The translations under genes and the position numbers were made by a program. A stretch of DNA of 64,000 nt from an uncultured delta proteobacterium. GTDB taxonomy: Bacteria > Desulfobacterota > Desulfobacteria > Desulfobacterales > JAFDCJ01. This document shows positions 32,754-51,108 of this stretch, in pieces. The notes under the pieces were generated by a model. It saw only the letters and a program-made list of their open reading frames with translations, had not been told where the DNA came from and made no database searches. Numbering within the stretch: the stretch's first letter is position 1; every line of letters begins with the position of its first letter. The stretch covers positions 128,001 through 192,000 of the forward strand of contig CAVYNY010000022.1 of NCBI GenBank assembly GCA_963769935.1, read 5' to 3'.

Positions 32754-32942
32754 GAATGGTTTCGTATCCAATTTCAATTTGACACTCTATACAAAATATG
32801 CAACATTATCAATGAATTAATCATATTGGCAAAAACCCTTTTGAGTTGGAATCCAACGGAGGGATAATGACCAGAATGAAAACCTCTGCTTGATGTATAT
32901 TATGCAGGGGTTTTTTTGTTTTCTTGATTGAGATAGATCAAA

Positions 32943-33602: not shown

Positions 33603-33718
33603 AAAGCAGAAAATACAAAACAAAGCATCCATTACATTGACGGGTGATGAAATTATCAATTATGTATTGGGAATCCTATGTATCCTATATCCCTTTGTTA
33701 CGTGAACAATAGGGGTTT

Positions 33719-33910
33719 TCATAGTTTTGATTTGAGTCGATAAATAGCTTTCGATGTTAGCACATGATTGCCTTCAATGATTTGCTGAATAGCTGGAGTC
33801 ACCCTGCCATACAAATCCATTAACTCTACCAGTAAAACAGTTTCAGAGATATCTTCCCACTTTTCGCTATCGTGACATTTACGCTCATACTGGTGCAGGT
33901 ATAACATCAT
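33719..33910 (-). CDS. Small hypothetical protein
   Basis: MMLYLHQYERK...WEDISE...VTPAIQQIIEG; start uncertain. Confidence 0.45.
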   Translation of the reverse strand: MMLYLHQYERKCHDSEKWEDISETVLLVELMDLYGRVTPAIQQIIEGNHVLTSKAIYRLKSKL

Positions 33911-35026
33911 ATCATTCAATCCGATCTCTGAGGAATTTCTATTATATATGTTGGTATGATTTTGATAATTGAGTGATAACAAATTTTCTTCCTTTTTTTT
34001 ATCTGAATAAATCAATCTTTTTGAATTCAATACCTGCTTTTTATTGGCTTTATAAGGGGAATCTTGAGTACATTATACAGCACGTTTCAGGTATCATAAT
34101 TATTATTGGGAAGATATTAATTGAATGAATAGAGATATAAAGAAATGACGTACCTATGCAGATATAATAATTGGTCTAATTAGAAGACAATTGTTAATCA
34201 CTACAGTACGCATTTAGTTTCTAATAATTTTTCAAAGGTCTTGTCTGGACAGTACTTCTGCCTTGCGGACTTGTTAATTTTGTTGAATTATTACGATGAA
34301 AACTTAAACCTTCATCAGTTATAAGGGTAAAATATTGCGAATTTATTTTTAAGATTTTAATCAAGTGATGATCTTTTAAATTAAGAATGACGTTCTCATC
34401 GGAATTCCTTTCTTTGAGATTCGACATGGGATAGTATGGATTTAATCTCAAAAACGTCAAGATAGCCATTCATATTTTATTTGCACTCATGCCAGTATTT
34501 TATTCAAAAGTTATCGGATAAAATTCTCATTATTCAATATTTTATAAAGTAGCGTATCTTAGCTGTCGTGGCCCACATTAGTTATCGGCAATATATAGGA
34601 TATCTTGAACGTATTTTATAGAGTTCATACGTAGTATCTTTTTAATTGAAATATTAAATGCAAAAAAAATGGGGATGATTGATTACATAATTTGTAACAA
34701 AAAATACACACCGTTTAAAATTCTTCTAATTTACTGGATGCATTTTTCCAAAACAGGAACCCGCTACTTAGATAGACCAAATTATTCCACACGCATATTC
34801 ACTTTTGGTATGGAAAATCACTTTCGGAATTTTTGATGGGTTCCGATATTCAGCAGGAAAAACGGAAATCGGTGTGGAGAATCATTTCAATATCGGGTGG
34901 TTCCACCCGAAGAATTCGATTGATTTAAGGTTTTGATTTAGATATTGGCTTGTGATATATTAGAAAGATCAAAGCCTGTATAATTGCCATCTCATAAATC
35001 AAGTTCCAAAGGATAACTGAATAACT

Positions 35027-35284
35027 ATGAAAAAGGAAATCAATAAACGTGAAGACCTGATTGGCAGGGAAATCATTTATAACAATAAATTAATCCTGAT
35101 CTCTGAAGCATGGGAGCGGACATACAAAAACCCCAATGTTAAAGATTGGCATGGTAAAATAATATATAGCCTTTCAGGTTATCATGATATTCAAAGGGGT
35201 AAAAAGGGTGAGAGCAAGGGGAAATATATCAAATTTGATGTTTTAAAAGAGAAAGTCGAATTTGCCTATAGAGAGACTCCGTAA
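35027..35284 (+). CDS. Hypothetical protein
   Basis: 85-aa ORF in AT-rich DNA. Confidence 0.45.
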   Translation: MKKEINKREDLIGREIIYNNKLILISEAWERTYKNPNVKDWHGKIIYSLSGYHDIQRGKKGESKGKYIKFDVLKEKVEFAYRETP

Positions 35285-35613
35285 AGAAGATCATCTGAAA
35301 AAAAAGACTCCGAAATGAAATCAAAATTAATCTATCATCAAATTTTCCATAGTTCTCATAATGGAATTTTAAATCTGAATTTTTAATAAGTTATTTAACT
35401 TTTGAACCGTCAATTGAGAGAATTCTGATTTTGGAATCAGAATTACAGTACTTCTACCTCATGTCATTGCAGTTCCTCATCCAACAGGTATGCTTCACCG
35501 GTATTTCAGATCAAGAAAACATTCAATTAAAACAGGATGCAGGGGGTGTAGAAAACTGAGATTCAGTTTGGTAATATTAAATATGGGGGTAAGATGAATT
35601 AGGAGTGAGAAAA

Positions 35614-35914
35614 ATGCCTATGGGAAAAGAACGAAGGGAATATGAACGGTTTCCATGCGAAACCCCAATTCTGCACGGAAAACTAGTCCCCCGATGATTT
35701 CTACAAAGGCACCATCTACAACTTCAGCAAAAGGGGATTATATTTCGAATCTGACGGAGATCTTTTAGAAGGGCATGAAGTATCAATATCAATTATTCCA
35801 CCAAAACATCAACTTACAGAGAAGTCCCATCAATATTTTGATGTCGAAATCATATGGTGCCAAAAACTATCAGGTTCATATTACCAAGTTGGCTACGGAG
35901 CAAGGTTAATCTAA
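35614..35914 (+). pseudogene. PilZ domain protein, frameshifted
   Basis: ERREYERF (RxxxR), then in another frame YNFSKRGLYFES (NxSxxG)...EIIWC...GYGARLI*; AGGAG RBS. Confidence 0.7.
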
Positions 35915-36078
35915 AAATACTTTGATATACTTTTCAGAGCAGGGCATATCCAAAATCAAGAAAACAATCACAGGAAACAGGGTAAAATCCAAAGAGCCGA
36001 TAAAGGGGTTTATGTCGGTGTGAAACAAGATTAGATCCAGACACTAACATTCCGGATATTCAATAGCGGGGATTTAAT

Positions 36079-36360
36079 ATGGCTCTGACCAAAATCCAAA
36101 TTGTCAATTCAATTGCCGATCAGATAGGCTATACCAAGAATCAAGCATCAGAAATGGTTGAAACTATCCTTGAGATCATTAAAAAAGCCCTTGAATCCGG
36201 TGAAAATGTCATGATCAGCAGCTTTGGCAAATTCTGTGTCAAGGAAAAGAGGGCAAGAAGGGGGAGGAATCCTGCAACAGGTGAGGAAATGATGCTGAGA
36301 CCAAGGAAGGTTGTCAACTTCAGGTGGTCGGGTATTCGTCGCCTCCGGTCCACCTTCTAA
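36079..36360 (+). CDS. IHF-alpha/HU family DNA-binding protein with aberrant C-terminus
   Basis: MALTK...ISSFGKF...RRGRNPATGE...RKVVNF, then diverges. Confidence 0.8.
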   Translation: MALTKIQIVNSIADQIGYTKNQASEMVETILEIIKKALESGENVMISSFGKFCVKEKRARRGRNPATGEEMMLRPRKVVNFRWSGIRRLRSTF

Positions 36361-36569
36361 GACCCGAAAAGAGAGTGGTGACAGCACAACTTTCCCGCTC
36401 CGAAGCAGGCCGATCATTTCTTTTTGGTTTGGTATTTTCCTATTGTTAGCCATTTTCCGGTTCAAGAAAACAACCCAATTTAGGAAAATATGCAAGCCAA
36501 ATATATTTTCTTAGGCCAAAATGTCACTTTGTCATGCCTTTTATCATTATTTTTTTCAGCGATCATTTA

Positions 36570-36697
36570 GGCCGTGGCAACCGTTTGAATTAAACCGCTT
36601 CCACCGCCGTGTCGAGACCGATTTTGTTGCGGAACTTGAAGCAGTCGGCAAGGGTTTTCTCAGGGCTGTAGATGCGTATATCCACACCGTCGAGCTT
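36570..36697 (-). pseudogene. Fragment of an AbiEi-type (type IV TA) antitoxin
   Basis: KLDGVDIRIYSPEKTLADCFKFRNKIGLDTAVEAV on the minus strand. Confidence 0.65.
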
Positions 36698-36709
36698 ATG
36701 GGTATCCAC

Positions 36710-36952
36710 ACCTGCCGCAATTTAAAGGTCGAGGGTGTGGACCTTTTCGGGGGCACACGCCATAGCACGGCAACAGCCCTGGGCGAGCACTTTTTCCGCC
36801 AGGAGATTATGACTGCCGGCTCAATGCACAAGACGAACAAGGCTGCGCTGCTTTATATAGAGGCGGAAAAAAATAAGAGTATCCTGGTTTATCAAAAAGT
36901 CCGGGAGATGGAGGGGAATGTTGTACAAAGCGGGAAGCAGAAGACAGGATGA
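36710..36952 (+). pseudogene. C-terminal remnant of a tyrosine recombinase
   Basis: CRNLKVEGVDLFGGTRHSTATALGEH...MHKTNKAALLY (RH...H...Y) next to the tRNA-Leu fragment. Confidence 0.65.
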
Positions 36953-37162
36953 GAGTAAAGTTTTGTGCAATTATTTTGTCACACATTTGTCACACATAAA
37001 TAAGGGGTTGCCGATAAAGCAACCCATTTTAATTATTAATGAATTTTGGTTCCGAAGGCCGGATTTAAACCGGCACGGGCGCGTTCCTTTTAAGGATGAA
37101 AAATTTTAATTTCAAGAGTCATTGGCTGCAAGGATTTGATAAGTTGAGATTTACTAGAAAAT

Positions 37163-37399
37163 TCAGGTATGATTTTTATAAATTTCGATGGATCGTTTTT
37201 TATTATGGACCAGATTCAATAAACCTGATTGCCCGCTGCATTTCTCATGGAACTCCTGGGTCTTTTCCTGCCTGACGACCTGCCCGAGTTTTTCGATTTC
37301 CGCTGCAAGCGTGCCGCAGCCTGACCCTTTAATACCTTTGATGGTGGATTGTATGTTCCCGTCGCGATCGATCACAAAATGAATTTCCTTGCGTTGCAT
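37163..37399 (-). CDS. DUF2997 family protein
   Basis: IHFVIDRDGNIQSTIKGIKGSGC...EKTQEFH. Confidence 0.85.
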   Translation of the reverse strand: MQRKEIHFVIDRDGNIQSTIKGIKGSGCGTLAAEIEKLGQVVRQEKTQEFHEKCSGQSGLLNLVHNKKRSIEIYKNHT

Positions 37400-37405
37400 T
37401 TCGGT

Positions 37406-37777
37406 TTACCTCCATGCTCTGGCCACCAGTTTAATGGCGCCGTCTTCAAGCGTTTCAATCGATGCCAGATTGTAGCGCAGCTCGGCCACCTTTTTTTTGA
37501 CCGTTTCAAGGCTGTACTGCTGCCTGAGTCTTTGTTGAAACCCATGGTCTTTGATGATGCGCCAATCGCTGTCGCCCACCATGTTGATTTCACCATTTTT
37601 GTGCCGGACAAATTGAACCCGCTGCGCATGGATATCAGCGAAGGCCAGTACATTGCGTCCTCTCTTTTTGTGCTTGGCATTCGGGCGAATGGATTCAATT
37701 CCCATCTCATGCAACGCGCTCAGTAAAATTTCCAAATCCGTGATGCCTTTCATCGCAATGTGTACGGTCATTGACAT
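37406..37777 (-). CDS. DUF1257 (Ycf35-like) family protein
   Basis: ITDLEILLSALHEMG...MVGDSDW...LRQQYS...EDGAIKLVARAW; GGAGG RBS. Confidence 0.8.
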   Translation of the reverse strand: MSMTVHIAMKGITDLEILLSALHEMGIESIRPNAKHKKRGRNVLAFADIHAQRVQFVRHKNGEINMVGDSDWRIIKDHGFQQRLRQQYSLETVKKKVAELRYNLASIETLEDGAIKLVARAWR

Positions 37778-37789
37778 GAGTATTCCTCC

Positions 37790-38002
37790 TTATCCGCAAT
37801 AAAGTTGTCCCGAAATGACTTTAACCGGAAACGGTTCAGGGTTGATTTCCTCCCATATGGCCAGGATCAATTGGGAAGCCGCCGGTGAAATCCATGGGAT
37901 TTCAACACTTCCATCGGGATGAATTATCAGCTCCTGCGTCACCACGGCCTGTGAATCTGATTCTCTTAAAACAATGTCATTTGAGAGTTTGTTTTGCGAC
38001 AT
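37790..38002 (-). CDS. Small hypothetical protein ending in LYCG
   Basis: MSQNKLSN...ELIIHPDGSVEIPW...LYCG; GAGGAAGGA upstream; fills the gap in the operon. Confidence 0.6.
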   Translation of the reverse strand: MSQNKLSNDIVLRESDSQAVVTQELIIHPDGSVEIPWISPAASQLILAIWEEINPEPFPVKVISGQLYCG

Positions 38003-39201
38003 GTGTGACACATTCCTTCCTCGATGTGACTCAAACAAAAATTGCGGTTGCAGTGAATGCAGTATTCGAGACAGCTATAACAAGTTTTTTGTCCGCAGAA
38101 TGTACATGATTCGGTCTTGCCCACCGGAAAACTCTCATGGCAGCCGATACAAAAAACGGTATGGTTGCGGCAGGAAATATCCCCTTTGGAATTGACCGCG
38201 ACGTGGTTGTTGCACCAGATTATGGTTTCTCCGCATTGATCGCAGTATCTGATGCAATTTGGACAGATGCGGCAGCCTTGTTTGCACTGAACCTGATGGT
38301 CGCGGCACACCAGCTGCCGGCACGACTCGCAATACAGGGCGTGTTCATTGCATACGGTGCGATTGCAGATTGAGCAGATATGGTTGTTTAAAACATGCCG
38401 GTCGACGATCTCGGCGCCGCATATATCACAAAGGGCGTAACAGGTTTCACAAACCAGCATATTTGAATCAGAAATGCCGAAGGACCAGGTTTCGCCGTCG
38501 CAGATATCACACCGCACCGGCGAGATGAGGCTGCCGTCATGGAGGTTGAGCACGGCCGCCACTTCTTTTGAATTACCGTTTCGTTGCAGCAGCCAAGTCA
38601 ATTTTTGAACCGGCGCCGAAATTGTCTCTACCGCAATTAAATCAATCGTTGCTTTTACCTGCGTGTATTGAATCTCCTCCCTAACCCGGCGCCTGTATTC
38701 CGCCTCCATGGCACGGGTCTCGGCCCTGTCAACACCGGCCGCATCCGACCCGAGTTGACGGTAGTATGTACCCAGCCTTTCGAGCGCCGGATACATATTT
38801 TTTAATGTTTTCTGTTGCAAATCCACGGCCTTTTCAACGATCAAATTCTCGGCAAAGCGAAAGCCGGCTTCGATAATCTGCTTGAACCGGTACAGTTTAA
38901 GGGGAGGTTTTTCCACCCACCGGATTTTTTTGTCCGCTGGGGTGATACGCTCTATTCGACGGGGTTGACGATCCGCCGGGATTTCGACGCCTTCGAGGAT
39001 TTCGACCACGTCGTCACCGATTAAGGTGATTTTCAACCAGATGCGTACGATGTCGTTCCATCCACGCCGGCATGAAAATTTTCTTTTCGAATCCCCGAAT
39101 ATCCTATATTTATCTTTTAGCATTTTCCCGGAATTCGCATAACGTGTCGGGAGTATACCATGGCGCGCTGAACCGGCAGGCACTGATTTCCGTGCTTTCA
39201 T
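37966..39201 (-). CDS. YqhG-like protein with a long Cys/His-rich C-terminal tail
   Basis: ERLGTYY...EYRRRVRE helical core, then about 17 CxxC/CxxH motifs; ATGA-coupled to the helicase. Confidence 0.7.
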   Translation of the reverse strand: MKARKSVPAGSARHGILPTRYANSGKMLKDKYRIFGDSKRKFSCRRGWNDIVRIWLKITLIGDDVVEILEGVEIPADRQPRRIERITPADKKIRWVEKPPLKLYRFKQIIEAGFRFAENLIVEKAVDLQQKTLKNMYPALERLGTYYRQLGSDAAGVDRAETRAMEAEYRRRVREEIQYTQVKATIDLIAVETISAPVQKLTWLLQRNGNSKEVAAVLNLHDGSLISPVRCDICDGETWSFGISDSNMLVCETCYALCDICGAEIVDRHVLNNHICSICNRTVCNEHALYCESCRQLVCRDHQVQCKQGCRICPNCIRYCDQCGETIIWCNNHVAVNSKGDISCRNHTVFCIGCHESFPVGKTESCTFCGQKTCYSCLEYCIHCNRNFCLSHIEEGMCHTCRKTNSQMTLF

Positions 39202-41172
39202 GCTTCGGCTCCAATCCGGTTGACGATGGATTTAAAGCGTTGATTGCGATCGTAACAGGATCGCGCATTGATCGCATCAACGGACAGTTTGCCAAAGGCA
39301 ACCTCTAAATTCCGGCGCGACAAATTAGACAGCAAAACATTGGCGATGCGCTGTTCAAACGATCGACCGGACGGCATATGTCCTAGAATTTCATTTACCG
39401 CGCCAATCACCAATTCAAACATTCGCAGCTTTTTGGCCAGAATGTCCACGACGTATTCTTCGATGGTGCCCCGGCAGACCAGGTTGAATATAACCACCTC
39501 ATCCTGGGGCTGGCCGAAACGATCGATTCTGCCGATACGCTGCTCGATTCGTTGCGGGTTCCACGGCAAATCAAAATTGATCATGTGATGGCAGCACTGT
39601 AAGTTTAAGCCGACGCCGCCGGTTTCGGTTGAAATCAGCACGGCGGAATCCGTGCGTCCGAATCCGGCTAAGATTTCCGATCGCTGTGCGGGATTGACAT
39701 GGCCGGTCAGACGGAAGACCGGCAGCCCCAGGCAGGATATAAATTTTGTCAGACAGCCCACGCTGGTCAAAAACTCCGAAAAAATCACAAATTTTTCGCC
39801 CTGGTAGTGGACTCAGAATCTGTTTCAATGTCTGAAATTTGGACGGCAGCGTTATGCTGCCGGCGAGGTCCGCGTAGTTCAACAGGCGCGCAACCGTGGC
39901 TGGCGGATAATTCGGCCGGCGGGCGATTCGAATTAAGGTTTGGCGCACGGCTTGAGGGGTCGACATCAACTCTCTTTGCAGAGTGATCAGGCTGAGCATG
40001 TGCGTGGTCATGCCCGATTCACGCAAAACTTCATTTTTGTATTCTCCATGGACGTATCCGGTCACGGATTCATATAAACGGCTTTCGACGGCAGACGGGG
40101 TGATATGGTAAATCCCAACGCGCCGGCGCGGAAATTTTACCTTGCAGGTATCCCGGCGATTGCGGATCATAACATCCGCCAAAGCCTCTTTTAATTCAGC
40201 TTCTGTTCCGCCCACGATCTCGCGGGGACTGCCGTGCGAAACAAACCTGCGCTTAAATGTCCGAACGGTTCCCAACCGGCCGGGCTGGATAAGGTCGACA
40301 ATGGAATAAAGTTCGTCCAGTGTATTATGAATCGGCGTGGCAGACAGGGCCAGGATGAAGCGCCTTCTTATTTTTTTTACAAATTTATACAGGGTGGTGC
40401 TGCGGTGTTTCAGGCGGTGGGCTTCATCCAATACCAGAATATCCCACCGCCGGTTTAGCAGGCACGGGCGCCTTTTGGCCAGATCATAGGATACAATCAA
40501 TTTCTGCTGATTTTCTCCCAGTTCATCAGCTGAGAATAGTTGAAAATTTTCATTAAACTTATGCTGAAGTTCCGCCTGCCATTGTCGGCACAGCCCTGCC
40601 GGCACTATAACCAGGACATGCTTTGCCAGCCGTCTAATTAACAGTTCCTTGATTAAAATTCCCGCCTCGATGGTTTTGCCCAATCCCACTTCGTCGGCCA
40701 GCAGCGCCCGTCCGTGCATTTTTTTTAAAACGGTAAATGCCGTCTTAATCTGGTGCTCCAATTGTTCGATGTTTGAGGCCGTATCAAGACCAATAAGACG
40801 TTCAAATCCATTTTGGAGGTCAGACTGTTGGGCTCGGAGATGGCGCTCAAACAGATGGGGATCCTTCCCGTTTCTCCGGTAAAACAGCTTTATATCGCCG
40901 CAATTGCTTTCTATGCGAACTTCCGGCAGATTTATGCCAACAGTATTTAGCAAGAGATTGATCTCATGGGATAAATCCCAGCGGATGCCGCAGCGCCAGC
41001 ACTCTCTGACGCCGCATTCACCGGACAGGGTTTCAAAGCGTTCGACACTGTCCAGCCAGCCGCATTCCGGGCACGTCCTGGCGGCGAAGGCCGTTTTGGG
41101 TTTTTGGCCTGCCTGATCAATATCCGTCTGTTGCGGGATCGTTATCCATTCAAACCGACCGGATCTTACCAC
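39198..41172 (-). CDS. SNF2-family helicase (YqhH/RapA-like) with an N-terminal Zn ribbon; one frameshift near 39812
   Basis: LLADEVGLGKT, DEAH, LSATP, then in another frame VIFSEF, STETGGVGLNLQ, WNPQRIEQRIGRIDRFGQ. Confidence 0.88.
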
Positions 41173-42721
41173 TTCGCCATTGCCTCCGTTCTTGTTCCAG
41201 TTTGTCGTTGGATGCCGGTCTGGCCCGGGTCAGCGCCCATGTTCTGAGGGCTTGAACATTTTCCGCCATGGTGATTGAAAGCGGTACGGTGATCTCAATA
41301 CTTTGCAGGATGTCAGCGGTTGACAGGGGACGGTTTTCGTCAAAGGCATTGTAAAGTCCGTCGATGACGGCCTGCTCAATTTCAGCGCCGGAAAATCCGG
41401 TACATTTTTCGGCCAGCAGCGCAAGGTCGAAATCACGCGGACTGCGATTTCGCTTGGTCAAATGGATGCTGATGATGGACTGCCGTTCGCCCAATCCCGG
41501 CAGATCGAGAAAAAAGATTTCATCCCAGCGTCCTTTGCGGATCAGCTCAGGGGGCAGCGATGTAATGGTGTTGCCCGTCGCAAAGACAAAGACCGACGCT
41601 GTTTTTTCCTGCAGCCAGGTTGCCAGGGAGGCAAAAACTCGGGCGGCTGTACCGGCATCGGAGTTGGATGAACTGCCGACTCCGGCCATTGACTTTTCGA
41701 TTTCATCGATCCACAAAATGCAGGGTGCCAAGGCCTCCGCCGTGCGGATGGCCTGCCGGGTATTTTCTTCCGAGCCGCCCACCCGGCTTGAAAACAGCTT
41801 GCCCGTATCCAGGCGCAGCAGGGGGAATTTCCACAAAGCGGCGCAGGCTTTGGCGGTCAGGCTTTTGCCGCAGCCTTGGATGCCGAGCAAAAGAATCCCT
41901 TTGGGATGGGGCAGGCCGTAGGCCCTGGCTTTTTCCGTGAATGCCCGCTGCCTTTTGGATAACCAGGCCTTTAAATTCTCAAGTCCGCCGACTTGCTCCA
42001 TGGTTTCGCGGGCGTCGAAAAATTCAAGGATTCCGGTTTTTTTAATTATCTGTTTTTTGCTCGCCACGATTTCATCGATCAGCTTCGAATCTATGATGCC
42101 GCTGCTTTTCACTACGGCCCTTGCCAGACAGTTTTCGAATTCATCCATGGTCAGGCCCTGACCGGCGTTGATGAGCCGCTCCCGGTCAGCACTGTTCAAC
42201 TCTATTTTGACTCGCCGGCCTTCCAGGGTGCTTATAACAGATGCCAGGGTTGAGGACAGGTCCTCTTTGGCAGGCAGCGCAAAATCCAACAGGTAGATTT
42301 CATGCTCCAGTGCAAGGGGCAGCTCGCGAATCGGGGACAGGATAATAATGCTGTTATGACTCTCCTTGAAATGCCGGGCAACGTCTTTTAAAAGCCGCTG
42401 CACCAGCGGGTCATTGATGACGGCCTGGAAATCCTTCAGCAGGAAAATGCCTTCATCAGGCTTGCTCTGCTTCAGGTGCTCGAGCAGCGCAACCGGGTCC
42501 TTCAACTGATCCCGGATCTCACCGACCTTCCTTTTTTGCCATGGTTCATTCTTCAGGGCCGGGGCAATCCCGTAAAGACCTGAGCTGATCGTGTGGATCC
42601 ATAATTTGCGTCGAATCCTGCTGCATATGCGCTCGAGTTCTTCTACGAAGCGAGTTTCTTCGGGGCTGACCACGTAAATGATCGGATAGTTTGCCAATAT
42701 GCAAAGCTCGATTTCAGTCAT
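41150..42721 (-). CDS. Ycf46-like AAA+ ATPase
   Basis: Degenerate N-terminal AAA domain (YPIIYVVSPEE, LLKDF), VGGLENLK, GIQGCGKS, WIDEIEK, RKGRWDEIFFLDLP. Confidence 0.92.
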   Translation of the reverse strand: MTEIELCILANYPIIYVVSPEETRFVEELERICSRIRRKLWIHTISSGLYGIAPALKNEPWQKRKVGEIRDQLKDPVALLEHLKQSKPDEGIFLLKDFQAVINDPLVQRLLKDVARHFKESHNSIIILSPIRELPLALEHEIYLLDFALPAKEDLSSTLASVISTLEGRRVKIELNSADRERLINAGQGLTMDEFENCLARAVVKSSGIIDSKLIDEIVASKKQIIKKTGILEFFDARETMEQVGGLENLKAWLSKRQRAFTEKARAYGLPHPKGILLLGIQGCGKSLTAKACAALWKFPLLRLDTGKLFSSRVGGSEENTRQAIRTAEALAPCILWIDEIEKSMAGVGSSSNSDAGTAARVFASLATWLQEKTASVFVFATGNTITSLPPELIRKGRWDEIFFLDLPGLGERQSIISIHLTKRNRSPRDFDLALLAEKCTGFSGAEIEQAVIDGLYNAFDENRPLSTADILQSIEITVPLSITMAENVQALRTWALTRARPASNDKLEQERRQWRSGKIRSV

Positions 42722-42729
42722 GTTAGAAT

Positions 42730-43300
42730 TCTTCTATGAAGAGGTTCATTCGTATGGGTTTCAGGTTTCACCTGTAATTCGTTAATTCCTAATTTCTAAA
42801 TGCCGACACCTTATATGAAACTACATCTCACACAGAGCGCTCAGAGGTCACAGAGGTTCGGGTTGGCAGCCGCCTGCGGCAAAAGAAAAATGTTCTCCGC
42901 GGCCTCTGTGAGCTCTAACGGAGTGGGCGTGATAGTAAATCCGACTGAGCCCGAATTTCCAAAAGTTTCTTTCTCGATTAATCTGGCCGTCTTTTGGGCC
43001 AGCGGCCCGGCTCGTGTGAAACTTCAAATAAAGGTATGTGGAATGGATTCGATTTTTATTTTTGTATAGACAGGATTAACAGGATTATCAGGAATTTTTT
43101 CGCCTGCGGCGAGGGGCCTTTCGGCCGAAGGCCGCATTATCCTGACGATCCTGTTGATCCTGTCCAATTATTTTTTTTAAAAGAAGAATCCATTCCTCTT
43201 TTTCTTTCCAATTTTAAAGTTTTTATCTGTTCAGACTGGATGCTTGCGGCCAGAGGCGGTGCTCATATGAAAATTCATCTGATTTAGAGTTATATTTCGG
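42730..43300. repeat. Mosaic of nested short inverted-repeat elements
   Basis: cacagag.../...ctctgtg and gacaggatt.../...atcctgtc 9-mer arms, cgcctgcggc palindromes. Confidence 0.65.
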
Positions 43301-43303
43301 TTG

Positions 43304-43447
43304 AAGTTAATGTCTGGTGGGAGTGGTTTCCAACCTCGATTTTAGATGGCGGTCCGACCGAGTTCATCGCGGTTGCCTCCAGCCCGTAGGGCTTACGCCC
43401 CGGAAGGAAAACCGCTCCCACAAGATCCTTAAACTGTTATCAGGTTC
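43304..43447. repeat. REP/REPIN-like element, copy 2
   Basis: Near-identical to 13171-13313. Confidence 0.85.
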
Positions 43448-43583
43448 TATATAAGTTTCTTTTTTGATCAGTCCGTCCGTTGTCTTGGCCGGCAGTTGGG
43501 CTGACACCTGAAACCTTTTAAAAACCTAGTATATTCAGACATTCCTGTGTATCCTGTCTGAAAAAAAGATAGAATTGAATAGA

Positions 43584-44318
43584 TCATAGATCGGAGCCTA
43601 ATAATTGTTTAATCCACTGCCGATACATCACCTCCGAATTCGGCACAACCGGGGGAAAGCGGCTCAACCAGTGAGTGCGGATTTTATGTTTGGTCGGAAC
43701 CCAAAAGATGTGATTATTCATTGGCCGTAGATTTACAGATGAAGGCAGCTTCTCAATTATCGTCGATGTCTTAGCTGGATATAGGGGACACAGCTTCGAG
43801 GATTCCATGGTCTTTGCCAGAGCATATTTATCCAGGGCGGCCTGCTGGTAACTTCCCTTTTCTGATCTGAAATAGGAAAACCAATAGCGCTCGCCTCTTT
43901 TCAAAGAAGCCAGTGAATAATTCATCAATCCAATGCCGAAGAGGTGGCATCCAAGATATGCCAGGCGGCGGTCCAAACTTTCAGACCGGCAGCCGGCGTA
44001 ATCCACAGCGCATTTTAAAAGTCCGGCAAGTTGATGAACATCGCCGGTTCCGAGGCTGTTTCCCTTCACATGGACCACGGTGCCGGTCCAGCGGTTTGAC
44101 AGCTCCAGCAACTCTGCCAGGTTCTGAAGATCGGTCTTTAAGGTAAATATGCCTCTGGTAACCGTTTTTCCACTTTCCCGAAGCAAATCATAGCGTTCCT
44201 GGGCCCGATCCAGCAGAACAAGTACGCGGTCTTCATCTTTCCTTGCGGCAGGTTTGCGGTCTATCTCCACCGACACCCACCAACCGCGATCTTTCCATTC
44301 TTTTTTGTGTTTCAACAT
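43584..44318 (-). CDS. Hypothetical protein
   Basis: About 245 aa; C..C..LGC..CPLY and YWFSY motifs; no family recognised. Confidence 0.7.
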   Translation of the reverse strand: MLKHKKEWKDRGWWVSVEIDRKPAARKDEDRVLVLLDRAQERYDLLRESGKTVTRGIFTLKTDLQNLAELLELSNRWTGTVVHVKGNSLGTGDVHQLAGLLKCAVDYAGCRSESLDRRLAYLGCHLFGIGLMNYSLASLKRGERYWFSYFRSEKGSYQQAALDKYALAKTMESSKLCPLYPAKTSTIIEKLPSSVNLRPMNNHIFWVPTKHKIRTHWLSRFPPVVPNSEVMYRQWIKQLLGSDL

Positions 44319-44574
44319 TGAGCACACAGCGGTCAAAGATTCGTGGTAATTCGTGTCAATTCGTGGTTAAGTAATTTGCGGTGAATGTTTGTATTGTTCG
44401 ATGATAACGAACAGTTAAGGCAAAAAAATATAACTAAAGGGTCAACCCTAATTGAGCGAAAGTCGAGGGTGCCCCAGCTTCAAGGCGTCCAAGAGTGAAG
44501 CTGTAGTTGCCTACCGCAAACCCTTGGCAACGCAGAAGATGGGGTGCCATCGGCTTTCCCGCGTTGTTTTCAGG

Positions 44575-44716
44575 GTAAACAAAATGGGATTTAAAATGGA
44601 CATTTACATCTGATTTATATTAGAATTAAAATTCACATAAGAAGTAAAATTTATAGAGAAAATATGAACATACATCGTAATATCAAAAAGATAAAAACCC
44701 ATCCCATTTTGTTTAC
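44575..44716. repeat. AT-rich segment bounded by perfect 16-bp inverted repeats (MITE-like)
   Basis: gtaaacaaaatgggat (44575-44590) and atcccattttgtttac (44701-44716). Confidence 0.75.
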
Positions 44717-44718
44717 GA

Positions 44719-45561
44719 TCATTTAGGGTTTAAGCCATCACATATGACGCCTTCCAAGACAATCTTAGCCTGAGTTTCATTTTTCACCAACCCCAGATCC
44801 TGCAGCCGTATAATCATCGCCTGTTTGGACACATTGAAGAAGCCGCCGGCCTCTTTGATCAAACCGGCAATCTGCGGCCAGGTTTCAACACAAGGATCAA
44901 AACACAGGGGCCCGCAAAAGGCGCTTTTGACATTGTATAGGATCAACGGCTTGGCGCCGTAGCATTTATAAAAGGCATCTTTAACCGCTGTTTCCGGCAT
45001 CAGCATGCATGACGCGAAATAATCCGCCTGCCATTCGATGGGTTTTTTGGCATCCCTGATCCGGCAGAAAATAAAGCCACCGATATGATCCTGTAAAGCG
45101 TTCGGCGAAATTGCGCCGCAGCCATCCGCCTTTGAGTTCTGCCCGAGGTCTGACTCGAAATCGTTAAGGTCTGCTGATTCTAATCTATTGCGGCGATGGC
45201 GAATGAAGCCGCCACCGGTTCGGCAGGCCTGGTCGACCAACTTCCGGTGCAAAACCCAGTGGCCGGTCTCGTGGGCAAAGGTGAAACTCAGCCGGCCTTC
45301 ATTTTGATTTTCCGCCAGACTTTGATCGACACAGATCACGCCTTCCCTGACGTAAGTGGCGCCGAGGACATCATCCAATTTCAGCTTTTTTCTAAGATCG
45401 ATGAATCCCAGCCTCAGGCTCAGGCCGCGTTCGATGATTTTTTCAACCGGGATCGGCGGCTGAACACGACGTTTTATTTTTGCTTCATAGTCGGTAAGCA
45501 CACCGGCAGCCGCAGCCGCAATTGATTTTTTAGTCAGCCAGGGAACTTTTAATTGTTGCAT
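44719..45561 (-). CDS. ImmA/IrrE family metallopeptidase
   Basis: PPIPVE, RLSFTFAHETGHWVLH (HExxH), EWQADYFASCMLMP, FNVSKQAMIIRL. Confidence 0.92.
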   Translation of the reverse strand: MQQLKVPWLTKKSIAAAAAGVLTDYEAKIKRRVQPPIPVEKIIERGLSLRLGFIDLRKKLKLDDVLGATYVREGVICVDQSLAENQNEGRLSFTFAHETGHWVLHRKLVDQACRTGGGFIRHRRNRLESADLNDFESDLGQNSKADGCGAISPNALQDHIGGFIFCRIRDAKKPIEWQADYFASCMLMPETAVKDAFYKCYGAKPLILYNVKSAFCGPLCFDPCVETWPQIAGLIKEAGGFFNVSKQAMIIRLQDLGLVKNETQAKIVLEGVICDGLNPK

Positions 45562-45832
45562 GATTTCAGCTCACTTCAAAATATGAAATATAAGATGAAA
45601 AAGTGCACAGCAATAAGTAATTAATCCGCCGGGCCTTGGAATTAGCAATTCTCTTCGGTTTTTAAGGATCAAATTACAACCCTGAATGGGTTATTTTTCA
45701 GGGCGGATTAGTGATTACGGAATGCAGATTGTGAATTATAACAAAATGGGAAATCCGTGAAGATCTGTGAAAATCTGCCTGCCTTGTGAAATTTATATCT
45801 CATTTCACCGGGGTGTCCCATATTAAATAAAG

Positions 45833-46189
45833 TTACTCCTTTTTACCCAATTTTGCAGCTTCCGCCAATTTGGTGAGTGTATCCCAGTCGTCACTGTCGA
45901 ATTTTTTTTCCCGGGCCATTCTTAAAAAGTCGGCTATTTCCGGTTCACGGGCAACGTAGCGGGAAATTTCCGGATCCATTTTTTGAGCTGAGTTTAAAAG
46001 TTCCTTTTTGTCTACATACAACGCCGCCGCAATCTTTAAAAGAACGTCTTCTGAGGGGGGCGGAACATGGTCATGTTCCACATCACTTAAATATCCGGGA
46101 GATTTGTTGATGAGACGGGCCAGTTCCCTGAGCCCGACGTCAGCATGTATTCTGAGATCGCGTAATTTTTTACCAAAGGTGTCGGTCAT
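45833..46189 (-). CDS. XRE-family HTH transcriptional regulator
   Basis: FGKKLRDLR...LRELARLINKSPGYLSDVEH...PPS. Confidence 0.92.
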   Translation of the reverse strand: MTDTFGKKLRDLRIHADVGLRELARLINKSPGYLSDVEHDHVPPPSEDVLLKIAAALYVDKKELLNSAQKMDPEISRYVAREPEIADFLRMAREKKFDSDDWDTLTKLAEAAKLGKKE

Positions 46190-46299
46190 AAATTGTTCAA
46201 GTAAGGCATTTGCGTTCTATCCTATCGAACATTAATATTTTGTCAAGAGGAAAATTCTTTGTTGAATTTTTTTTTAATGTTGCTTATCTTGTGCTCCGA

Positions 46300-46775
46300 A
46301 TGGTTTCAAAGTACAGGGTTCAGAGGTTTGGGGCTGCGCGCTGCGCGCTTCCGACTTCGCTCTTCGAGCTACGACGGGACAAGACGACCCCAGAGGCAGG
46401 GTTCAGAGGACAGACGACAGCTGTCAGGGGTCAGAAGATAAATTACAGAGGACGGACAATCGAATTCGGAAATCGGACCCGCCGTCGTCCGATAAGACGG
46501 GGCTGTGGCGCGGCAAGCACGGGGAAGGCGGGAAAAAAGCCGAAGGTGGGAGAAGGAACGAATCGATTATTGATATCAGATTTCGGATTGTGAATCGGAG
46601 CAGCAAAGGGCGGAGGGCAAAGGCTATGAAAATTGTTTATCCCATCAGGTCTCACTTCTAATTCCCTTAAGTTGAACTCCGCGTCTCCGCTTCCCAGCCT
46701 CCGGACCTCCTGGCTTTCCCGCTTTTCTGCTGTGATCTATCAACCATCAACTCAACAAAAACAACAAACTCGAAA
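46300..46775. repeat. Mosaic of 7-nt-periodic repeats and small hairpin elements
   Basis: ggttcag, gacagac, ttcggat units; cttcgctcttcgagctacg motif; purine-rich left arm and pyrimidine-rich right arm. Confidence 0.6.
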
Positions 46776-46793: not shown

Positions 46794-47946
46794 GTGGACA
46801 ACATCCGTACCGTACAATTAAATTTGCCGCCGGGGAGGATTGATTTCGGGGTCGGCCAGCCGAGCCCGGCGTTGCTGCCCCTGGCGCTGCTGAAAGAAGC
46901 GGCCGCGCAACGATTGAACAGCCGGGATGCTTCTTTGCTGGCGTATGGCGCCGAGGAGGGTGACGGATATTTCCGTCTGGCGCTGGCCCGGTTTCTCAGC
47001 GCGCATTATCAAGTGCCGGTCGATTTTGATAGTCTTTTTATCACCGCCGGAGCGTCCCAGGGACTGGATCTGATTTGCACGCTGCTCAGCCGGCCCGGTG
47101 ACACCATATTCGTGGAAGAGCCAAGCTATTTTCTGGCCCTGCGAATTTTTGCCGATCACGGGCTGAACATTGTCAGCCTGCCGATGGATGCACACGGTTT
47201 AATTGTCGACGCCGTCGAAGAAAAACTAACCCGGCAGACGCCCGCTTTCTTATACACAATCCCGACCTTTCACAATCCCTCCAGTGCGACCCTTGCAGCC
47301 GACCGGCGCGATCGGCTCGTGCAATTGAGCCGGCAGTATAATCTATTGATAATAGCAGATGAAGTATACCACATGCTGTCCTATTCGGATGCCCCGCCCA
47401 AGCCCCTGGCAAGCCATATTGACAACAGCTCCGTGCTTTCTCTGGGATCTTTTTCAAAAATTATGGCCCCCGGGCTGCGTCTGGGGTGGATCCAGGGGGG
47501 TGCCCAATTGCTGCAACGTTTCACGGGCTGCGGACTGCTTGACAGCGGCGGCGGGCTGAATCCCTTTACATCGGGCATCATTCGCAGCGCCGTTGAAAAC
47601 GGTCTGCTGGAAAACCAGCTGCGGAACCTGATAACCGCCTACAACCGGCGCAAAACCGCCCTGGCCGATGCCCTGAGGGATAGCCTGCCGGAGACGAGTG
47701 CATTTTGTCGAACCCGGCGGGGGCTTTTTCATCTGGCTGGAATTCCCGGAAAAAATCGACACCAATCATTTGCTGGCTGCCGCTTTTGAACAAAACGTCG
47801 GTTTTTTACCGGGCATGAAATTTTCCGCACATAAAGGACTGAAAAATTTTGCCCGGTTGAGCTTCTCATATTATGATATACCAGAGTTGGAGGAAGGCGC
47901 CCGGCGACTGGGGAAGGTTATCAAAGAGTATATAAATGATGAATGA
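46794..47946 (+). CDS. PLP-dependent class I aminotransferase (MocR-like fold, no HTH); frameshift near 47695
   Basis: GASQGLD, YTIPTFHNP, ADEVY, SFSKIMAPGLRLGW; C-terminus (PGGGFFIW...RLSFS) in the next frame. Confidence 0.85.
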
Positions 47947-48012: not shown

Positions 48013-48152
48013 GTGAAAGGTTAATGGTAAAAGGTCAAAGGCGCAGGAGGCACACTTCAGTCTTTTAAAATAGACTTGTCATCCCGCTCCATCGGGAGCG
48101 CAAGGCTCACGGCGGTGGATATAGATCCTATTTGGATTTGGAGATACACCCT

Positions 48153-51108
48153 ATGGTTAGAAAATCCAGCTCTTTTAACAGCGATAGAATTCAAGTGTCC
48201 GATATCGACATAAAATGGGATACGAAGCAGGGGGTGTGCACTTTTGAAGACCTGCCGGTCGCCATGATGTGGATCGATTCAACGCTTGCAGGTTTCATGT
48301 CAGGTGTTCAGGCAATGGTCGGCACCGAGCGTTTCGGCCTGGCCCTTCAGAGTGAAGGGCGAAAAAGTGTCGAGGCTGATTGGCAAATTATCACCCGATT
48401 CGCAGATTTCGCCGCAGGTTTCAGGGCCATTGCCAATATCGCCGCGGTCGCGGGCTGGGGCGACTGGGAATTGATATTACTTGATGAGAAACAAAAGCGA
48501 TGTCAAATCAGGGTCCGGAACAGCTGGGAAGGTCTTTATCAGAAAGCTCTGGGAGTTTGCTGGGGCAGCGGCATGTTGGCGGGTAAAATGGCCGGTTACT
48601 GTACAAAACATTTTGGCACCAACTGCTGGGCTGAGCAGAAAAAATTCATCGCCAATGGGGATGATTTTGATGAATTCCTAATAGTACCTTCGGAGCGCAC
48701 GGTAGAAGAGGAGATTGAAAATCTGCTGGCAACCGATGAGGCCACCCGAGCAGATATGGCGGTGGCTCTGGAAAAGCTAAAAAGGGAAATCTCGGTTCGG
48801 GAGCGGGCCGAAAAAACACTGCGGGAATCTGAAGAAAAATATCGCCGTCTCGTTGATTTATCTTTTGAAGGCATCGGGATTCACTGCGAGGGGAAAATCG
48901 TCTACATTAATAAAACCGGTGCAGAACTTATAGGTGGAGGCTCCCCTGAAGATATTATTGGCAAGCCCGTGCTGGATTTTGTTCATCCGGACTATAGAGA
49001 TTCTGTTATAAAAAGAATGCAGACATTAGAGGCTAAAGGAATTGGGGCGGCTATTGATGAAGAGAAATTTATCGGAATCGATGGACGAGAGCTTACCGTG
49101 GAGGTTGCAGGGGTTCCGATGGTTTACCAGGGAAAACCAGCTATCCAGGTGTTTTTCGTGATATAACCGATCTCAAGCGGAAAGAGAAGCGTTGAGGGAA
49201 AGTGAGGAGCGGTTTCGTACGCTGACGAAAGGACAAGTGATTGGATATGGGAAGTGGACCGAAACGGCATTTACACCTATGCCAGTCCCAAGGTGAAAGA
49301 TTTACTGGGATATGAATCAGATGAGGTTATTGGCAAGACGCCATTTGCATTTATGCCCACTGACGAAGGCAACGAGTTAGTCGACTATTTCAAAATATCA
49401 TCCGGTCCAAAAACCTTTTCAAGGCTAGAGAATACTTGCATTCACAGGGAGGGGAGACAAGTCACGCTTGAGACCAGTGGTGTCCCCATTTTGATACCGA
49501 CGGAAATCTGCTCGGATATAGAGGTGTTGATCGAGATATTACGAAACGTAAACAGGCCGAGGAGGCATTGCGGGAAAGTGAAAGAATATCGGCTCCTTAT
49601 CGAAAACATTCCCTCCGTTGCCTGGGTTACCAGTCAGGATGGCCGAACCGTTTTCATCAGTTCAAATGTGGAAAAAGTATATGGCTACACTGCTGATGAG
49701 ATCCTATCAAAAGGTAAAGAACTTTGGTTGGACAGGGTTCACCTCGATGATCGAGATCAGGTAAAAGAAGCCTTTAGAATGCTGTTTGATCAGAAAGTTC
49801 AATATAACGTAGAGTACAGGATTCAGCGAAAGGATGGACAATGGATTTGGATCCACGACAGGGCCAACATTGTTGAAGAGCAGGCGGGAGAACATTTTGC
49901 CTATCGGGGTGTTCTCGGATATCACCGAGCGCAAGCGCGCGGAGGAGGAAAAGGAGAATTTGCAGTCCCAGTTGCAGCAGGTTCAGAAAATAGAGGCGAT
50001 AGGAACGTTTGCCGGCGGCATTGCCCATGACTTCAACAACCTGTTGATGGGAATACAGGGCCGTGCTTCGCTGATGTCGGTGGAGTTGAATCCCTCCCAT
50101 CCCCACATCGAACATCTTAATGCCATTGAGGAATATATCCAGAGTGCCGCGAATTTGACCAAGCAACTGTTGGGTTTTGCCCGAGGCGGGAAATATGAAG
50201 TAAAAGCCATCGATATGAATGAATTGGTGCGAAACAGCGCGTCGATGTTCGGCCGGACAAAAAAAGAAATCAAGATCCACACCAAATTGCAGTATCATCC
50301 GACTCCCGTGGTGGAAGCCGACCGGAGGCAGATCGAGCAGGTGCTGCTGAATATGTATGTCAACGCATGGCAGGCCATGCCTGCCGGCGGGGAGCTGTAC
50401 CTGGAAACAAAGATCGTACAGTTGGATGATGAATACTGCAAGCCGCATCAGATAGAACCAGGACGGTATGTCAAGGTGTCGGTCACGGATACCGGCATCG
50501 GCATGGACGAAACCACCCGGCAGAGAGTTTTCGACCCGTTTTTCACGACCAAAGAAAAGGGCCGCGGCACCGGTTTAGGGTTGGCCTCAGCTTACGGGAT
50601 TACAAAGAACCACGGCGGCATGATTACAGTCTACAGTGAGATCGGCCGCGGAACCACATTCAACATCTATTTGCCGGTATCTGATAAGGAAGAGTATCGC
50701 GAGAGTCCCGTGGCAGGAAAGCTGATCAAGGGATCGGAGAACATTCTGCTGGTTGATGACGAAGAGATGATCATCGATGTGGGCCGATCAATGCTGGAAA
50801 AGTTGGGCTATCGTGTAGTTGTTGCCAGGGGCGGCCAGGAAGCCTTGGACGCTGTCAGCAACATGGGAGAAGAAATCGATTTAGTGATCCTTGACATGAT
50901 CATGCCCGGGATCGACGGCGGCAAGACCTTCGATCGCATCCGTGAGATTCAGTCGCTGATGCCGGTGTTACTTTCCAGCGGTTATGCCATCAGCGGCCAG
51001 GCAGATGAAATCATGCGCAGGGGATGCAACGGGTTCATTCAAAAGCCGTTCAACATCTTCGAGCTTTCCCAACTGGTTCGAAAACTTCTGGATGAGGGGA
51101 AAACCTAA
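48153..51108 (+). CDS. Hybrid sensor histidine kinase (V4R-like + PAS domains + HisKA/HATPase + REC), broken by several frameshifts
   Basis: ORF pieces 48132-49166, 49254-50030 and 49834-51108; AGGIAHDFNN, DPFFTTK, GTGLGL, LVILDMIMP. Confidence 0.85.

What the first reader, a model, noticed from the sequence alone, without database searches (positions are those of the whole stretch)
37163..46189. Candidate undescribed system: XRE + ImmA/IrrE, hypothetical, Ycf46-like AAA+, SNF2 helicase, Cys-rich YqhG-like protein, small protein, DUF1257, DUF2997
Seen: nine co-oriented genes; the six from 42721 to 37163 overlap or are separated by 12 nt or less. Established: Ycf46-type AAA+, DUF1257 (Ycf35) and DUF2997 commonly occur as a trio of unclear function; YqhH-like SNF2 helicases pair with YqhG-like genes; HTH + IrrE-type peptidase pairs act as DNA-damage switches (ImmR/ImmA, CapH/CapP). 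Here the helicase pair is inserted inside the trio, so two normally separate modules form one operon, beside an island edge. Inference: a damage- or phage-inducible machine coupling a DNA translocase to an AAA+ remodeller, possibly anti-phage. No nuclease or other effector is recognisable, so the output is unknown.
Basis: partly seen in the sequence, partly recalled or inferred. Interest (0 to 1): 0.8.

Follow-up and report, generated by a model that had tools for sequence, protein, structure and literature searches.

The report
Damage-switched, clamp-tethered split RapA operon
Nine linked genes, kept in the same order in related sediment bacteria and sharing one repeated palindrome at two promoter regions, encode a likely DNA-damage switch and a two-piece DNA motor whose zinc-rod subunit ends in a sliding-clamp docking motif, so the motor is predicted to work at stalled replication forks beside the long-unexplained Ycf46 ATPase genes.

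Summary
All nine genes are real and co-oriented. The nine-gene order recurs in three other genomes and one metagenome contig, and eight of nine in a fourth genome. Two further genomes hold only HTH-IrrE-AAA-small-DUF1257-DUF2997, which points to a real insertion of the SNF2 pair.

New here:
(1) A TGTTC-N9-GAACA palindrome sits over the HTH promoter and again before the downstream genes. These are the top two matches in the 8-Mb genome.
(2) The YqhG-like protein resembles the C-terminal third of RapA, so SNF2 plus partner is a split RapA.
(3) It ends in QMTLF, a beta-clamp-type motif kept in 23 of 26 full-length relatives and in none of 68 distant ones.

Best reading: a damage-induced, clamp-tethered translocase that clears stalled forks. 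Defence is the main rival. No binding was tested, and about half of the closest homologues have lost the rod and motif. The scan noted the trio and the split-RapA pair separately on other DNA; my look-ups found no note of this union, operator or motif. No paper on it was found.

The parts
46213..46246 (-). sigma-70-type promoter of the HTH gene (TTGACA at 46246, TAGGAT ending 46219) overlapped by palindrome 1, TGTTC-N9-GAAC (46213-46231)
   Evidence: TTGACA and palindrome arms invariant in 5 of 5 loci; PWM score 21.7, rank 2 in genome
45833..46189 (-). XRE-family HTH protein, 118 aa, predicted repressor (ImmR/CapH/DdrO-like)
   Evidence: HTH_31 E 3.5e-9; capH E 4.3e-9
44719..45561 (-). IrrE/ImmA-type M78 metallopeptidase, 280 aa, HETGH motif intact
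   Evidence: PF06114 E 8.5e-10; capP E 2.9e-18, partial; HExxH in 6 of 6 relatives
44395..44413 (.). palindrome 2, TGTTCG-N7-CGAACA, about 60 nt before the orphan gene
   Evidence: PWM score 25.7, rank 1 in the 8-Mb genome
43584..44336 (-). orphan protein (250 aa from first start, about 240 aa likely): N-terminal ferredoxin/ACT-like fold plus a domain with conserved Cys109, 116, 130, 183
   Evidence: 48 homologues; pTM 0.79; best Z 7.1, residues 18-92 only
41150..42721 (-). Ycf46-type AAA+ ATPase, 523 aa; one intact ATPase module (GIQGCGKS, WIDEIEK, N384, RKGR); pore loop SSRVGG lacks an aromatic residue
39198..41172 (-). minimal SNF2 ATPase (YqhH/RapA-core-like) with N-terminal CxxC..CxxC; frameshifted near 39811-39814 in this assembly
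   Evidence: DEVGLGKT, DEAH, SATP, GVGLNLQ, QRIGRIDR present; runs X1 and X4 lack one base
37966..39201 (-). YqhG-like protein, 411 aa: RapA-C-terminal-like alpha+beta/coiled-coil domain (about 1-227), rod of 18 Cys/His pairs (231-401, about 9 predicted Zn sites), flexible tail
37969..37983 (-). C-terminal QMTLF, beta-sliding-clamp-type motif (QxxLF)
   Evidence: consensus from PMC12309361
37790..38002 (-). 70-aa protein ending YCG, belongs to the core AAA-small-DUF1257-DUF2997 unit
   Evidence: 48 of 48 homologues end in CG
37406..37777 (-). DUF1257 (Ycf35-like), 123 aa
   Evidence: E 8.8e-7, over cut-off
37163..37399 (-). DUF2997, 78 aa
   Evidence: E 5.8e-12
37005..37025 (-). terminator-like hairpin after the operon
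   Evidence: consensus match only; 8 found against 12.6 expected in shuffles
37047..37078 (-). degenerate tRNA-Leu(GAG) 3' end (att-like remnant) just past the operon
   Evidence: 30 of 33 identical to tRNA-Leu at C22:552468-552554

Best explanation
The nine genes form one operon, likely switched on by DNA damage, whose SNF2 ATPase and YqhG-like partner are predicted to assemble a two-piece RapA-like DNA motor that would dock on the replication sliding clamp through the partner's C-terminal QMTLF and clear stalled protein-DNA complexes, most likely RNA polymerase, near stalled forks. Steps. (1) Shown: one palindrome covers the HTH promoter and recurs before the downstream genes. Inferred: the XRE protein binds both sites. 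(2) Shown: intact HExxH peptidase next to the XRE gene. Inferred from CapP/CapH and IrrE/DdrO: single-stranded DNA activates it to cleave the repressor, without LexA. (3) Shown: the SNF2 stops where RapA's C-terminal third begins, and the next gene resembles that third. Inferred: they form one motor. (4) Shown: conserved terminal QxxLF on a flexible tail after a zinc rod. Inferred: it binds DnaN, with the rod as spacer or binding surface. (5) Weakest step, inferred: the Ycf46-type AAA+ with its three small partners remodels or releases what the motor engages.
For: Order of all nine genes kept in G015, G022, L009 and L015, and of eight in G032; 10 of 10 metagenome loci keep the order as far as the contig reaches. 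Palindrome at both positions in L007, L008, L009, L015, L107 and L108, and before IrrE and the orphan gene in L006; a matrix built from 17 sites of relatives ranks the two window sites first and second in 8 Mb (25.7, 21.7, next 18.2), while 8 comparison loci without the regulators reach 8.1-14.6. RapA likeness: top four Foldseek rows are E. coli RapA (E 2e-3 to 7e-3), VIA-align 4s20 Z 7.1 over 155 residues, HHalign 235 colinear columns, probability 56%, E 1.1e-4. Motif: Q..[LM]F in the last 30 residues of 23 of 26 full-length members; Q 23/26, L 23/26, F 24/26 against at most 10/26 for the four residues before; 0 of 40 distant hits and 0 of 28 short YqhG-like proteins; in this genome the strict motif ends 2 of 4402 ORFs, the other being a UvrD-type helicase beside dnaN. 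Literature: QxxLF consensus (PMC12309361, passages); CapP activated by ssDNA (10.1101/2022.04.27.489752, passages); B. thuringiensis yqhH deletion lowers UV survival (PMC10054049, abstract); E. coli rapA is damage-induced independently of SOS (PMC12871841, abstract).
Against: 11 of the 25 closest homologues (P0015-P0025) and 2 of the 4 relative genomes (G015, G022) have lost the zinc rod and the motif, so the tether is dispensable in part of the lineage. RapA's N-terminal Tudor domains, which contact RNA polymerase (PMC8666675, passages), are absent from the SNF2, so RNA polymerase as target is not secured. The RapA-type tail is also shared by the BREX helicase BrxHII (PMC12839542, passages). 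Each RapA match alone is weak (Foldseek E above 0.001, Z under 8, HHalign 56%; with A5 only 0.8-1.8%). The operon is patchy: 3 of 100 relatives gave a strong match to the Cys-rich protein (2 of 22 in the genus) and 0 of 400 in a phylum sample, unusual for a repair gene. The AAA pore loop lacks the aromatic residue of unfoldases. The core operon exists without the motor, and SNF2-YqhG pairs exist without the core. The strict motif pattern was chosen after seeing the sequence.
Confidence: 0.42

Rival explanations
1. A damage-induced defence system against phages or other mobile DNA: the same switch and split motor, but the clamp motif directs the motor to replicating foreign DNA or blocks replication, and the AAA module or the orphan Cys protein is the effector.
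For: CapH/CapP-like pairs regulate CBASS, DISARM and other immune operons (10.1101/2022.04.27.489752, passages). The SNF2 halves score best with DrmD, DpdE, HmaA and BrxH models. Patchy distribution. att-like tRNA remnant at the operon's end. The minimal operon of G550 lies about 2 kb from an array of CRISPR-like repeats. Earlier scan notes report SNF2-YqhG pairs with Mrr nucleases or in defence islands (unchecked).
Against: All NCBIfam defence scores are far below cut-off (e.g. DrmD 122-125 bits against 610-950). No methylase, nuclease or known effector in any locus read. 1 of 42 flanking proteins has a plausible PADLOC hit (PDC-S01 in L108; the second hit is a sigma-54 regulator). The operon sits beside the same aminotransferase gene in the window, G022 and L015, and near argG in the window and L015.
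Confidence: 0.3
2. Co-regulated lodgers: the SNF2-YqhG pair and the orphan gene moved into a damage-inducible Ycf46 operon and use its promoter; the two modules do separate jobs and do not touch.
For: The core operon with both operators exists without them in G550 and G578, and AAA directly precedes the small gene in G251. YqhG-like genes occur in 90 of 351 class genomes and DUF2997 in 20 of 351, but on one contig only in G000 and G032. The trio also occurs with radical-SAM and PilT-type genes (L109).
Against: The nested order with overlapping reading frames is kept down to about 33-40% identity of the partner and 50-60% of the ATPases. The rod-and-motif clade is distinct (99 SH-aLRT, quick tree) and every locus of it that could be read lies in this operon.
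Confidence: 0.22
3. The copy in this genome is a decaying remnant with a dead helicase.
For: Frameshift in the SNF2 gene; the partner lacks 68 N-terminal residues found in most divergent relatives; repeats fill the spacers; truncations are common in the clade.
Against: Contigs of runs X1 and X4, from two studies, lack one base at 39814 and 39811 (depth 5.6 and 2.7). The assembly has other indels, including the essential tyrS in three frames and the neighbouring aminotransferase in two. The 411-aa form recurs in P0001-P0003 and P0005.
Confidence: 0.06

Closest known systems
E. coli RapA (HepA), Swi2/Snf2 RNA polymerase recycling ATPase (PDB 8SO8, 6BOG, 4S20, 8T0L)
   Same: SNF2 core with all motifs; the partner resembles the C-terminal alpha+beta/coiled-coil region; damage-inducible outside SOS (PMC12871841, abstract).
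   Different: Two genes, not one; no Tudor domains; added zinc rod and terminal QxxLF; embedded in an XRE/IrrE and AAA operon.
Bacillus yqhH (hepA) / yqhG (PF11079) gene pair
   Same: Minimal SNF2 with an adjacent YqhG-fold partner (TM 0.53-0.66 to YqhG clusters); yqhH affects UV survival (PMC10054049, abstract) and is treated as a RapA-like factor (PMC7385302, passages).
   Different: Below the Pfam YqhG cut-off; long zinc rod, clamp motif, dedicated regulators and the AAA trio.
Cyanobacterial/plastid Ycf46 AAA+ with Ycf35 (DUF1257) and DUF2997
   Same: Same three families adjacent; stress-induced operon in cyanobacteria (PMC13683863, PMC7283877, passages; DUF2997-DUF1257 cluster in PMC4284462, passage).
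   Different: Non-photosynthetic host; XRE/IrrE control with a defined palindrome; extra YCG-ending protein; SNF2 pair inserted.
CapH/CapP, DdrO/IrrE and ImmR/ImmA damage switches
   Same: XRE protein plus HExxH M78 peptidase heading an operon.
   Different: No GAF domain detected; the controlled genes are no catalogued immune system; regulon appears local.
BREX type-3 BrxHII and DISARM DrmD helicases
   Same: RapA-like architecture (PMC12839542, passages); best family hits of the SNF2 halves.
   Different: Far below cut-offs; split; no methylase, PglZ or other system genes.
Human ZRANB3 (analogy only)
   Same: SNF2 translocase recruited to the sliding clamp by a short motif and a zinc finger, acting at stalled forks (PMC13728640, passages).
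   Different: No homology outside the SNF2 core was tested; ZRANB3 has an HNH nuclease and reads ubiquitinated PCNA.

Membership tests
RapA | SNF2 core with Walker A, DEAH, SAT, motif V and QRIGR | tested here: met
   split by a frameshift in this assembly, intact in relatives
RapA | N-terminal tandem Tudor domains | tested here: not met
   Tudor models hit E. coli RapA, not L009 or L015 SNF2; a CxxC..CxxC segment stands there
RapA | C-terminal RapA_C region on the same chain | tested here: not met
   (PF12137 does not match G000); the likeness is on the next gene
RapA | RapA_C-like fold supplied by the partner gene | tested here: inconclusive
   three weak but concordant matches; weaker
RapA | Binds and removes RNA polymerase | not testable with these tools
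   needs biochemistry
YqhG (PF11079) | Pfam model at cut-off | tested here: not met
   2 of 48 aligned relatives hit weakly, best E 1.2e-4
YqhG (PF11079) | Same fold and position directly after a minimal SNF2 | tested here: met
   (TM 0.53-0.66, on P0006 residues 1-300)
Beta-clamp clients | QL[S/D]LF or QxxLF pentapeptide, conserved, on a flexible terminus | tested here: met
   pLDDT falls to 68 and 46 over the last 11 residues; consensus in PMC12309361
Beta-clamp clients | Binding to DnaN | not tested
Ycf46/DUF1257/DUF2997 module | About 500-aa AAA+ adjacent to DUF1257 and DUF2997 | tested here: met
   no Ycf46-specific model was run
Cdc48/p97-type unfoldases | Aromatic pore loop 1 and two active AAA modules | tested here: not met
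   loop reads S[SED][RQE]VG in 6 of 6; one Pfam AAA module; TIGR01243 92 bits against 803
CapH/CapP (IrrE/DdrO, ImmA/ImmR) | XRE HTH gene next to an HExxH M78 peptidase | tested here: met
CapH/CapP (IrrE/DdrO, ImmA/ImmR) | C-terminal GAF domain of CapP/IrrE | tested here: inconclusive
   no Pfam GAF hit; relatives are about 230-330 aa; no structure predicted
CapH/CapP (IrrE/DdrO, ImmA/ImmR) | ssDNA-stimulated cleavage of the repressor | not testable with these tools
   needs biochemistry
DISARM / BREX / Dpd / Zorya | Family cut-off and companion genes | tested here: not met

The most novel reading that the evidence does not exclude
A bacterial SNF2 motor tethered to the beta sliding clamp through a zinc-rod subunit, a prokaryotic counterpart of PCNA-recruited fork remodellers such as ZRANB3, switched on by its own LexA-independent ssDNA sensor and working as one machine with the Ycf46/Ycf35/DUF2997 ATPase module. 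It would give YqhG proteins, and the orphan plastid genes ycf46 and ycf35, a first link to replication stress.
Probability: 0.27. Interest if true: 0.86.

Novelty: new variant of a known kind. Interest (0 to 1): 0.7.

Why it matters
It turns three long-orphaned gene sets (YqhH/YqhG, Ycf46/DUF1257/DUF2997, a 70-aa YCG protein) into direct experiments: a named operator, a named inducer class and a five-residue docking motif. A clamp-docked SNF2 translocase was not found described for bacteria in the searches run. The minimal six-gene operon is itself the first hint, in what I could search, that Ycf46-type ATPases outside cyanobacteria are under DNA-damage-type control.

Tried and rejected
Orphan 250-aa protein: no Pfam, NCBIfam, PADLOC or PHROG family; Atlas hits 0.78-0.79, leads only; fold searches cover only residues about 15-95, so the Cys domain is untested rather than new. 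Viral contigs: none for the orphan or the small protein; plasmids: none for the small protein. Small protein as a DUF2997 paralogue: 12 columns, probability 27%, not accepted. PDB sequence search with the YqhG-like profile gave only weak zinc-finger and designed-helix rows. Wider regulon: no clearly separated operator beyond the two sites. RecA and LexA regular expressions found nothing in the genome; the patterns were recalled and the assembly has indels, so nothing is concluded. RNA run X20 has a small share and contigs only, so co-transcription is not shown. Relaxed ARAGORN on related loci gave chance calls, ignored; the tRNA remnant was not found in 12 related loci. MAFFT alignment of the second operator region aligned poorly; the motif scan was used instead. 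The tree is the quick one, midpoint-rooted, with every second short-form locus and 20 of the distant hits.


Full report
Observation. All nine genes exist on the minus strand. Pfam confirms an XRE HTH, an M78 peptidase, an AAA+, an SNF2, DUF1257 and DUF2997; three genes have no family. The last six overlap or lie within 12 nt. The SNF2 gene is in two frames, broken near 39811-39814. Contigs of runs X1 and X4, from two studies, each lack one base there (depth 5.6 and 2.7; X2 and X5 do not span the site), relatives are intact, and this assembly also splits tyrS and the neighbouring aminotransferase. An assembly error is the likeliest cause. The 271- and 862-nt spacers are largely multicopy repeats; a contig in run X2 skips 866 nt of the second.

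Conservation. The Cys-rich protein found strong matches in 3 of 100 relatives (G015, G022, G032) and one chance-level match, none in 400 phylum genomes, and three loci in the genome collection, two of them apparently the G015 and G022 contigs and one new, L009 (titles name Desulfobacterales, Desulfosarcina and Thermodesulfobacteriota). G015, G022 and L009 hold all nine genes in order; G032 holds eight, with a different HTH gene further upstream. All 10 metagenome loci keep the order as far as they reach, L015 for all nine; some are near-copies (L015/L017, L018 like G015, L020 like G022). The window, G022 and L015 share the upstream aminotransferase gene. A tRNA-Leu 3'-end remnant follows the operon and another lies at 32247-32266, so an island edge is real, but only 1 of 42 flanking proteins had a plausible PADLOC hit.

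Insertion. In 351 class genomes a broad YqhG-like profile matched 90 (a few only weakly) and DUF2997 matched 20; both lay on one contig only in G000 and G032. The 28 best other YqhG-like proteins were all short (340-409 aa, 2-4 Cys pairs) and next to an SNF2; six read over 16-18 kb had none of the other genes. G550 and G578 carry HTH-IrrE-AAA-small-DUF1257-DUF2997 with no orphan gene, SNF2 or partner, and a short G251 contig shows AAA-small-DUF1257-DUF2997. The simplest reading is that the SNF2 pair was inserted between the AAA and small genes; direction was not tested on a rooted tree.

Regulation. TTGACA and a TGTTC-N9-GAAC palindrome over the -10 box are invariant upstream of the HTH gene in 5 of 5 loci. 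A second copy lies at 44395-44413 before the orphan gene. Both positions carry it in L007, L008, L009, L015, L107 and L108; L006 has it before IrrE and twice before the orphan gene. Background is 5 exact and 50 one-mismatch sites per 2 Mb. A matrix from 17 sites of relatives ranks the two window sites first and second in the genome; 8 loci without the regulators score at most 14.6. Close kin were in the training set, so the ranks are not independent of ancestry. This is direct sequence evidence that the regulators and the downstream genes are one unit. That the peptidase senses ssDNA and cleaves the repressor is inferred from CapP/CapH (10.1101/2022.04.27.489752, passages; 10.64898/2026.05.16.725639, abstract) and IrrE/DdrO (PMC12828697, search listing).

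The motor. The SNF2 aligns with RapA's ATPase lobes and ends where RapA's C-terminal third begins; it lacks the Tudor pair. The partner's model (pLDDT 85.8) has RapA as its top four Foldseek rows and 4s20 at Z 7.1 over 155 residues. A 36-sequence profile aligns colinearly with two RapA C-termini over 235 columns at probability 56%; the first profile gave only 0.8-1.8%. Atlas models link the domain to YqhG clusters. Each line is weak; together they favour a split RapA-type motor. PMC12839542 (passages) calls this C-terminal domain unique to RapA and BrxHII and does not mention YqhG. Earlier scan notes reached the split-RapA reading on other DNA; my fold result came before I saw them.

The clamp motif. 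After 18 Cys/His pairs the partner ends in QMTLF on a low-confidence tail. The bacterial clamp-binding consensus is QL[S/D]LF or QxxLF (PMC12309361, passages). Of 26 full-length members, chosen by length (left out: partial P0004, internally deleted P0010, and 13 short forms), 23 have Q..[LM]F within 30 residues of the end, one is QLSLF, and the motif columns are far more conserved than the linker. It is absent from 40 distant hits and 28 short YqhG-like proteins. A tree of N-terminal domains alone puts the motif bearers in one clade of 16 (99 SH-aLRT, quick method). In this genome the strict motif ends 2 of 4402 ORFs and the loose one 8; the other strict case is a UvrD-type helicase next to dnaN. 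Against: 11 of the 25 closest homologues, including G015 and G022, have lost rod and motif; P0076 lost the rod and kept QMPLF. Binding was not tested because the complex predictor was not available.

The AAA module. One intact ATPase module, with no aromatic pore-loop residue in 6 of 6 sequences, so a Cdc48-type threading unfoldase is doubtful. The small protein ends in CG in 48 of 48 homologues, and many DUF2997 proteins of other class loci end in L[CG]-type LCG tails; this shared tail is unexplained. The orphan protein has an ACT/ferredoxin-like front and four conserved Cys. In cyanobacteria the ycf46 operon is stress- and ppGpp-linked (PMC13683863, passages; PMC7283877, passages).

Mechanism and odds. 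One regulatory unit, about 0.85. Damage/ssDNA induction, about 0.7. Split RapA-type motor, about 0.8. Clamp binding, about 0.7. Fork-clearing rather than defence, slightly favoured because B. thuringiensis yqhH aids UV survival (PMC10054049, abstract), B. subtilis yqhH is handled as a RapA-like factor (PMC7385302, passages) and E. coli rapA is damage-induced (PMC12871841, abstract); patchy distribution and CapH/CapP precedent favour defence. Physical coupling to the AAA module, about 0.35-0.4. These are my judgements, not computed values.

Print. Full-text searches: DUF1257 or DUF2997, 5 papers, none by title or abstract on this arrangement (one read in passage); YqhG or YqhH; ycf46 or ycf35; clamp-binding motif with SNF2/DnaN; slr0374/slr0376; Ycf46 with helicase and defence terms, none of the 15 listed containing Ycf46; YqhG/SNF2/PF11079/RapA, none of the 25 listed containing YqhG. 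Subscription papers are not held and no supplements were read; neighbourhood tables in supplements of comparative-genomics papers could list this operon. The ZRANB3 comparison rests on passages of PMC13728640 and is an analogy.

Verdict. A real, conserved, undescribed operon built from known families of unknown function, with a defined operator and a clamp-type docking motif that make it testable. New variant of a known kind; interest 0.70.

Noticed in passing
G000:C18:308470-311902 (L124:69-3503): 1144-aa protein with a UvrD helicase in its C-terminal part, ending QLKLF, encoded about 1.6 kb from dnaN on the opposite strand: a second likely clamp client.
   Followed up: partly
L084, L085, L089, L090, L092-L095, L097-L101, L103, L104, L106: DUF2997 proteins in many other class loci end in an LCG tail (LPLCG, LNLCG and similar); the DUF2997 here lacks it while the adjacent 70-aa protein ends YCG, as if the tail were supplied by a separate gene.
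   Followed up: partly
L107:9248-13119 (G550) and L108:4239-7850 (G578): Minimal HTH-IrrE-AAA-small-DUF1257-DUF2997 operon with the same operators; in G550 about 2 kb from an array of CRISPR-like repeats, in G578 after toxin-antitoxin-like pairs and a PDC-S01 hit.
   Followed up: partly
window 32247-37078: Low-GC stretch bracketed by two tRNA-Leu 3'-end remnants, holding a DUF2283 gene with a small upstream ORF, a pentapeptide-repeat gene and an IHF/HU-type gene.
   Followed up: partly
window 42800-43520, 45575-45720, 46325-46390: Intergenic repeats with up to about 75 copies in the genome, also abundant in sequencing runs; REP- or MITE-like, not characterised.
   Followed up: no
window 46794-47946; G000:C11 about 558974-559824; window 48132-51108: Frameshifts in the aminotransferase and in tyrS, and an apparently split PAS histidine kinase, point to indel errors in this assembly.
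   Followed up: partly
L055-L082: A short YqhG-like protein beside an SNF2 is common in this class (28 of 28 examined), with 2-4 Cys pairs, no clamp motif and, in six tested, no Pfam YqhG hit.
   Followed up: partly
L109:8051-14542 and L110:1039-5038: Another DUF2997 context: radical SAM gene, AAA+, DUF1257-like and DUF2997, followed in L109 by a T2SSE/PilT-type ATPase.
   Followed up: no
L015:1407-3008 and 12773-14392: Two similar AAA_35-type genes flank the operon on both sides in this contig.
   Followed up: no
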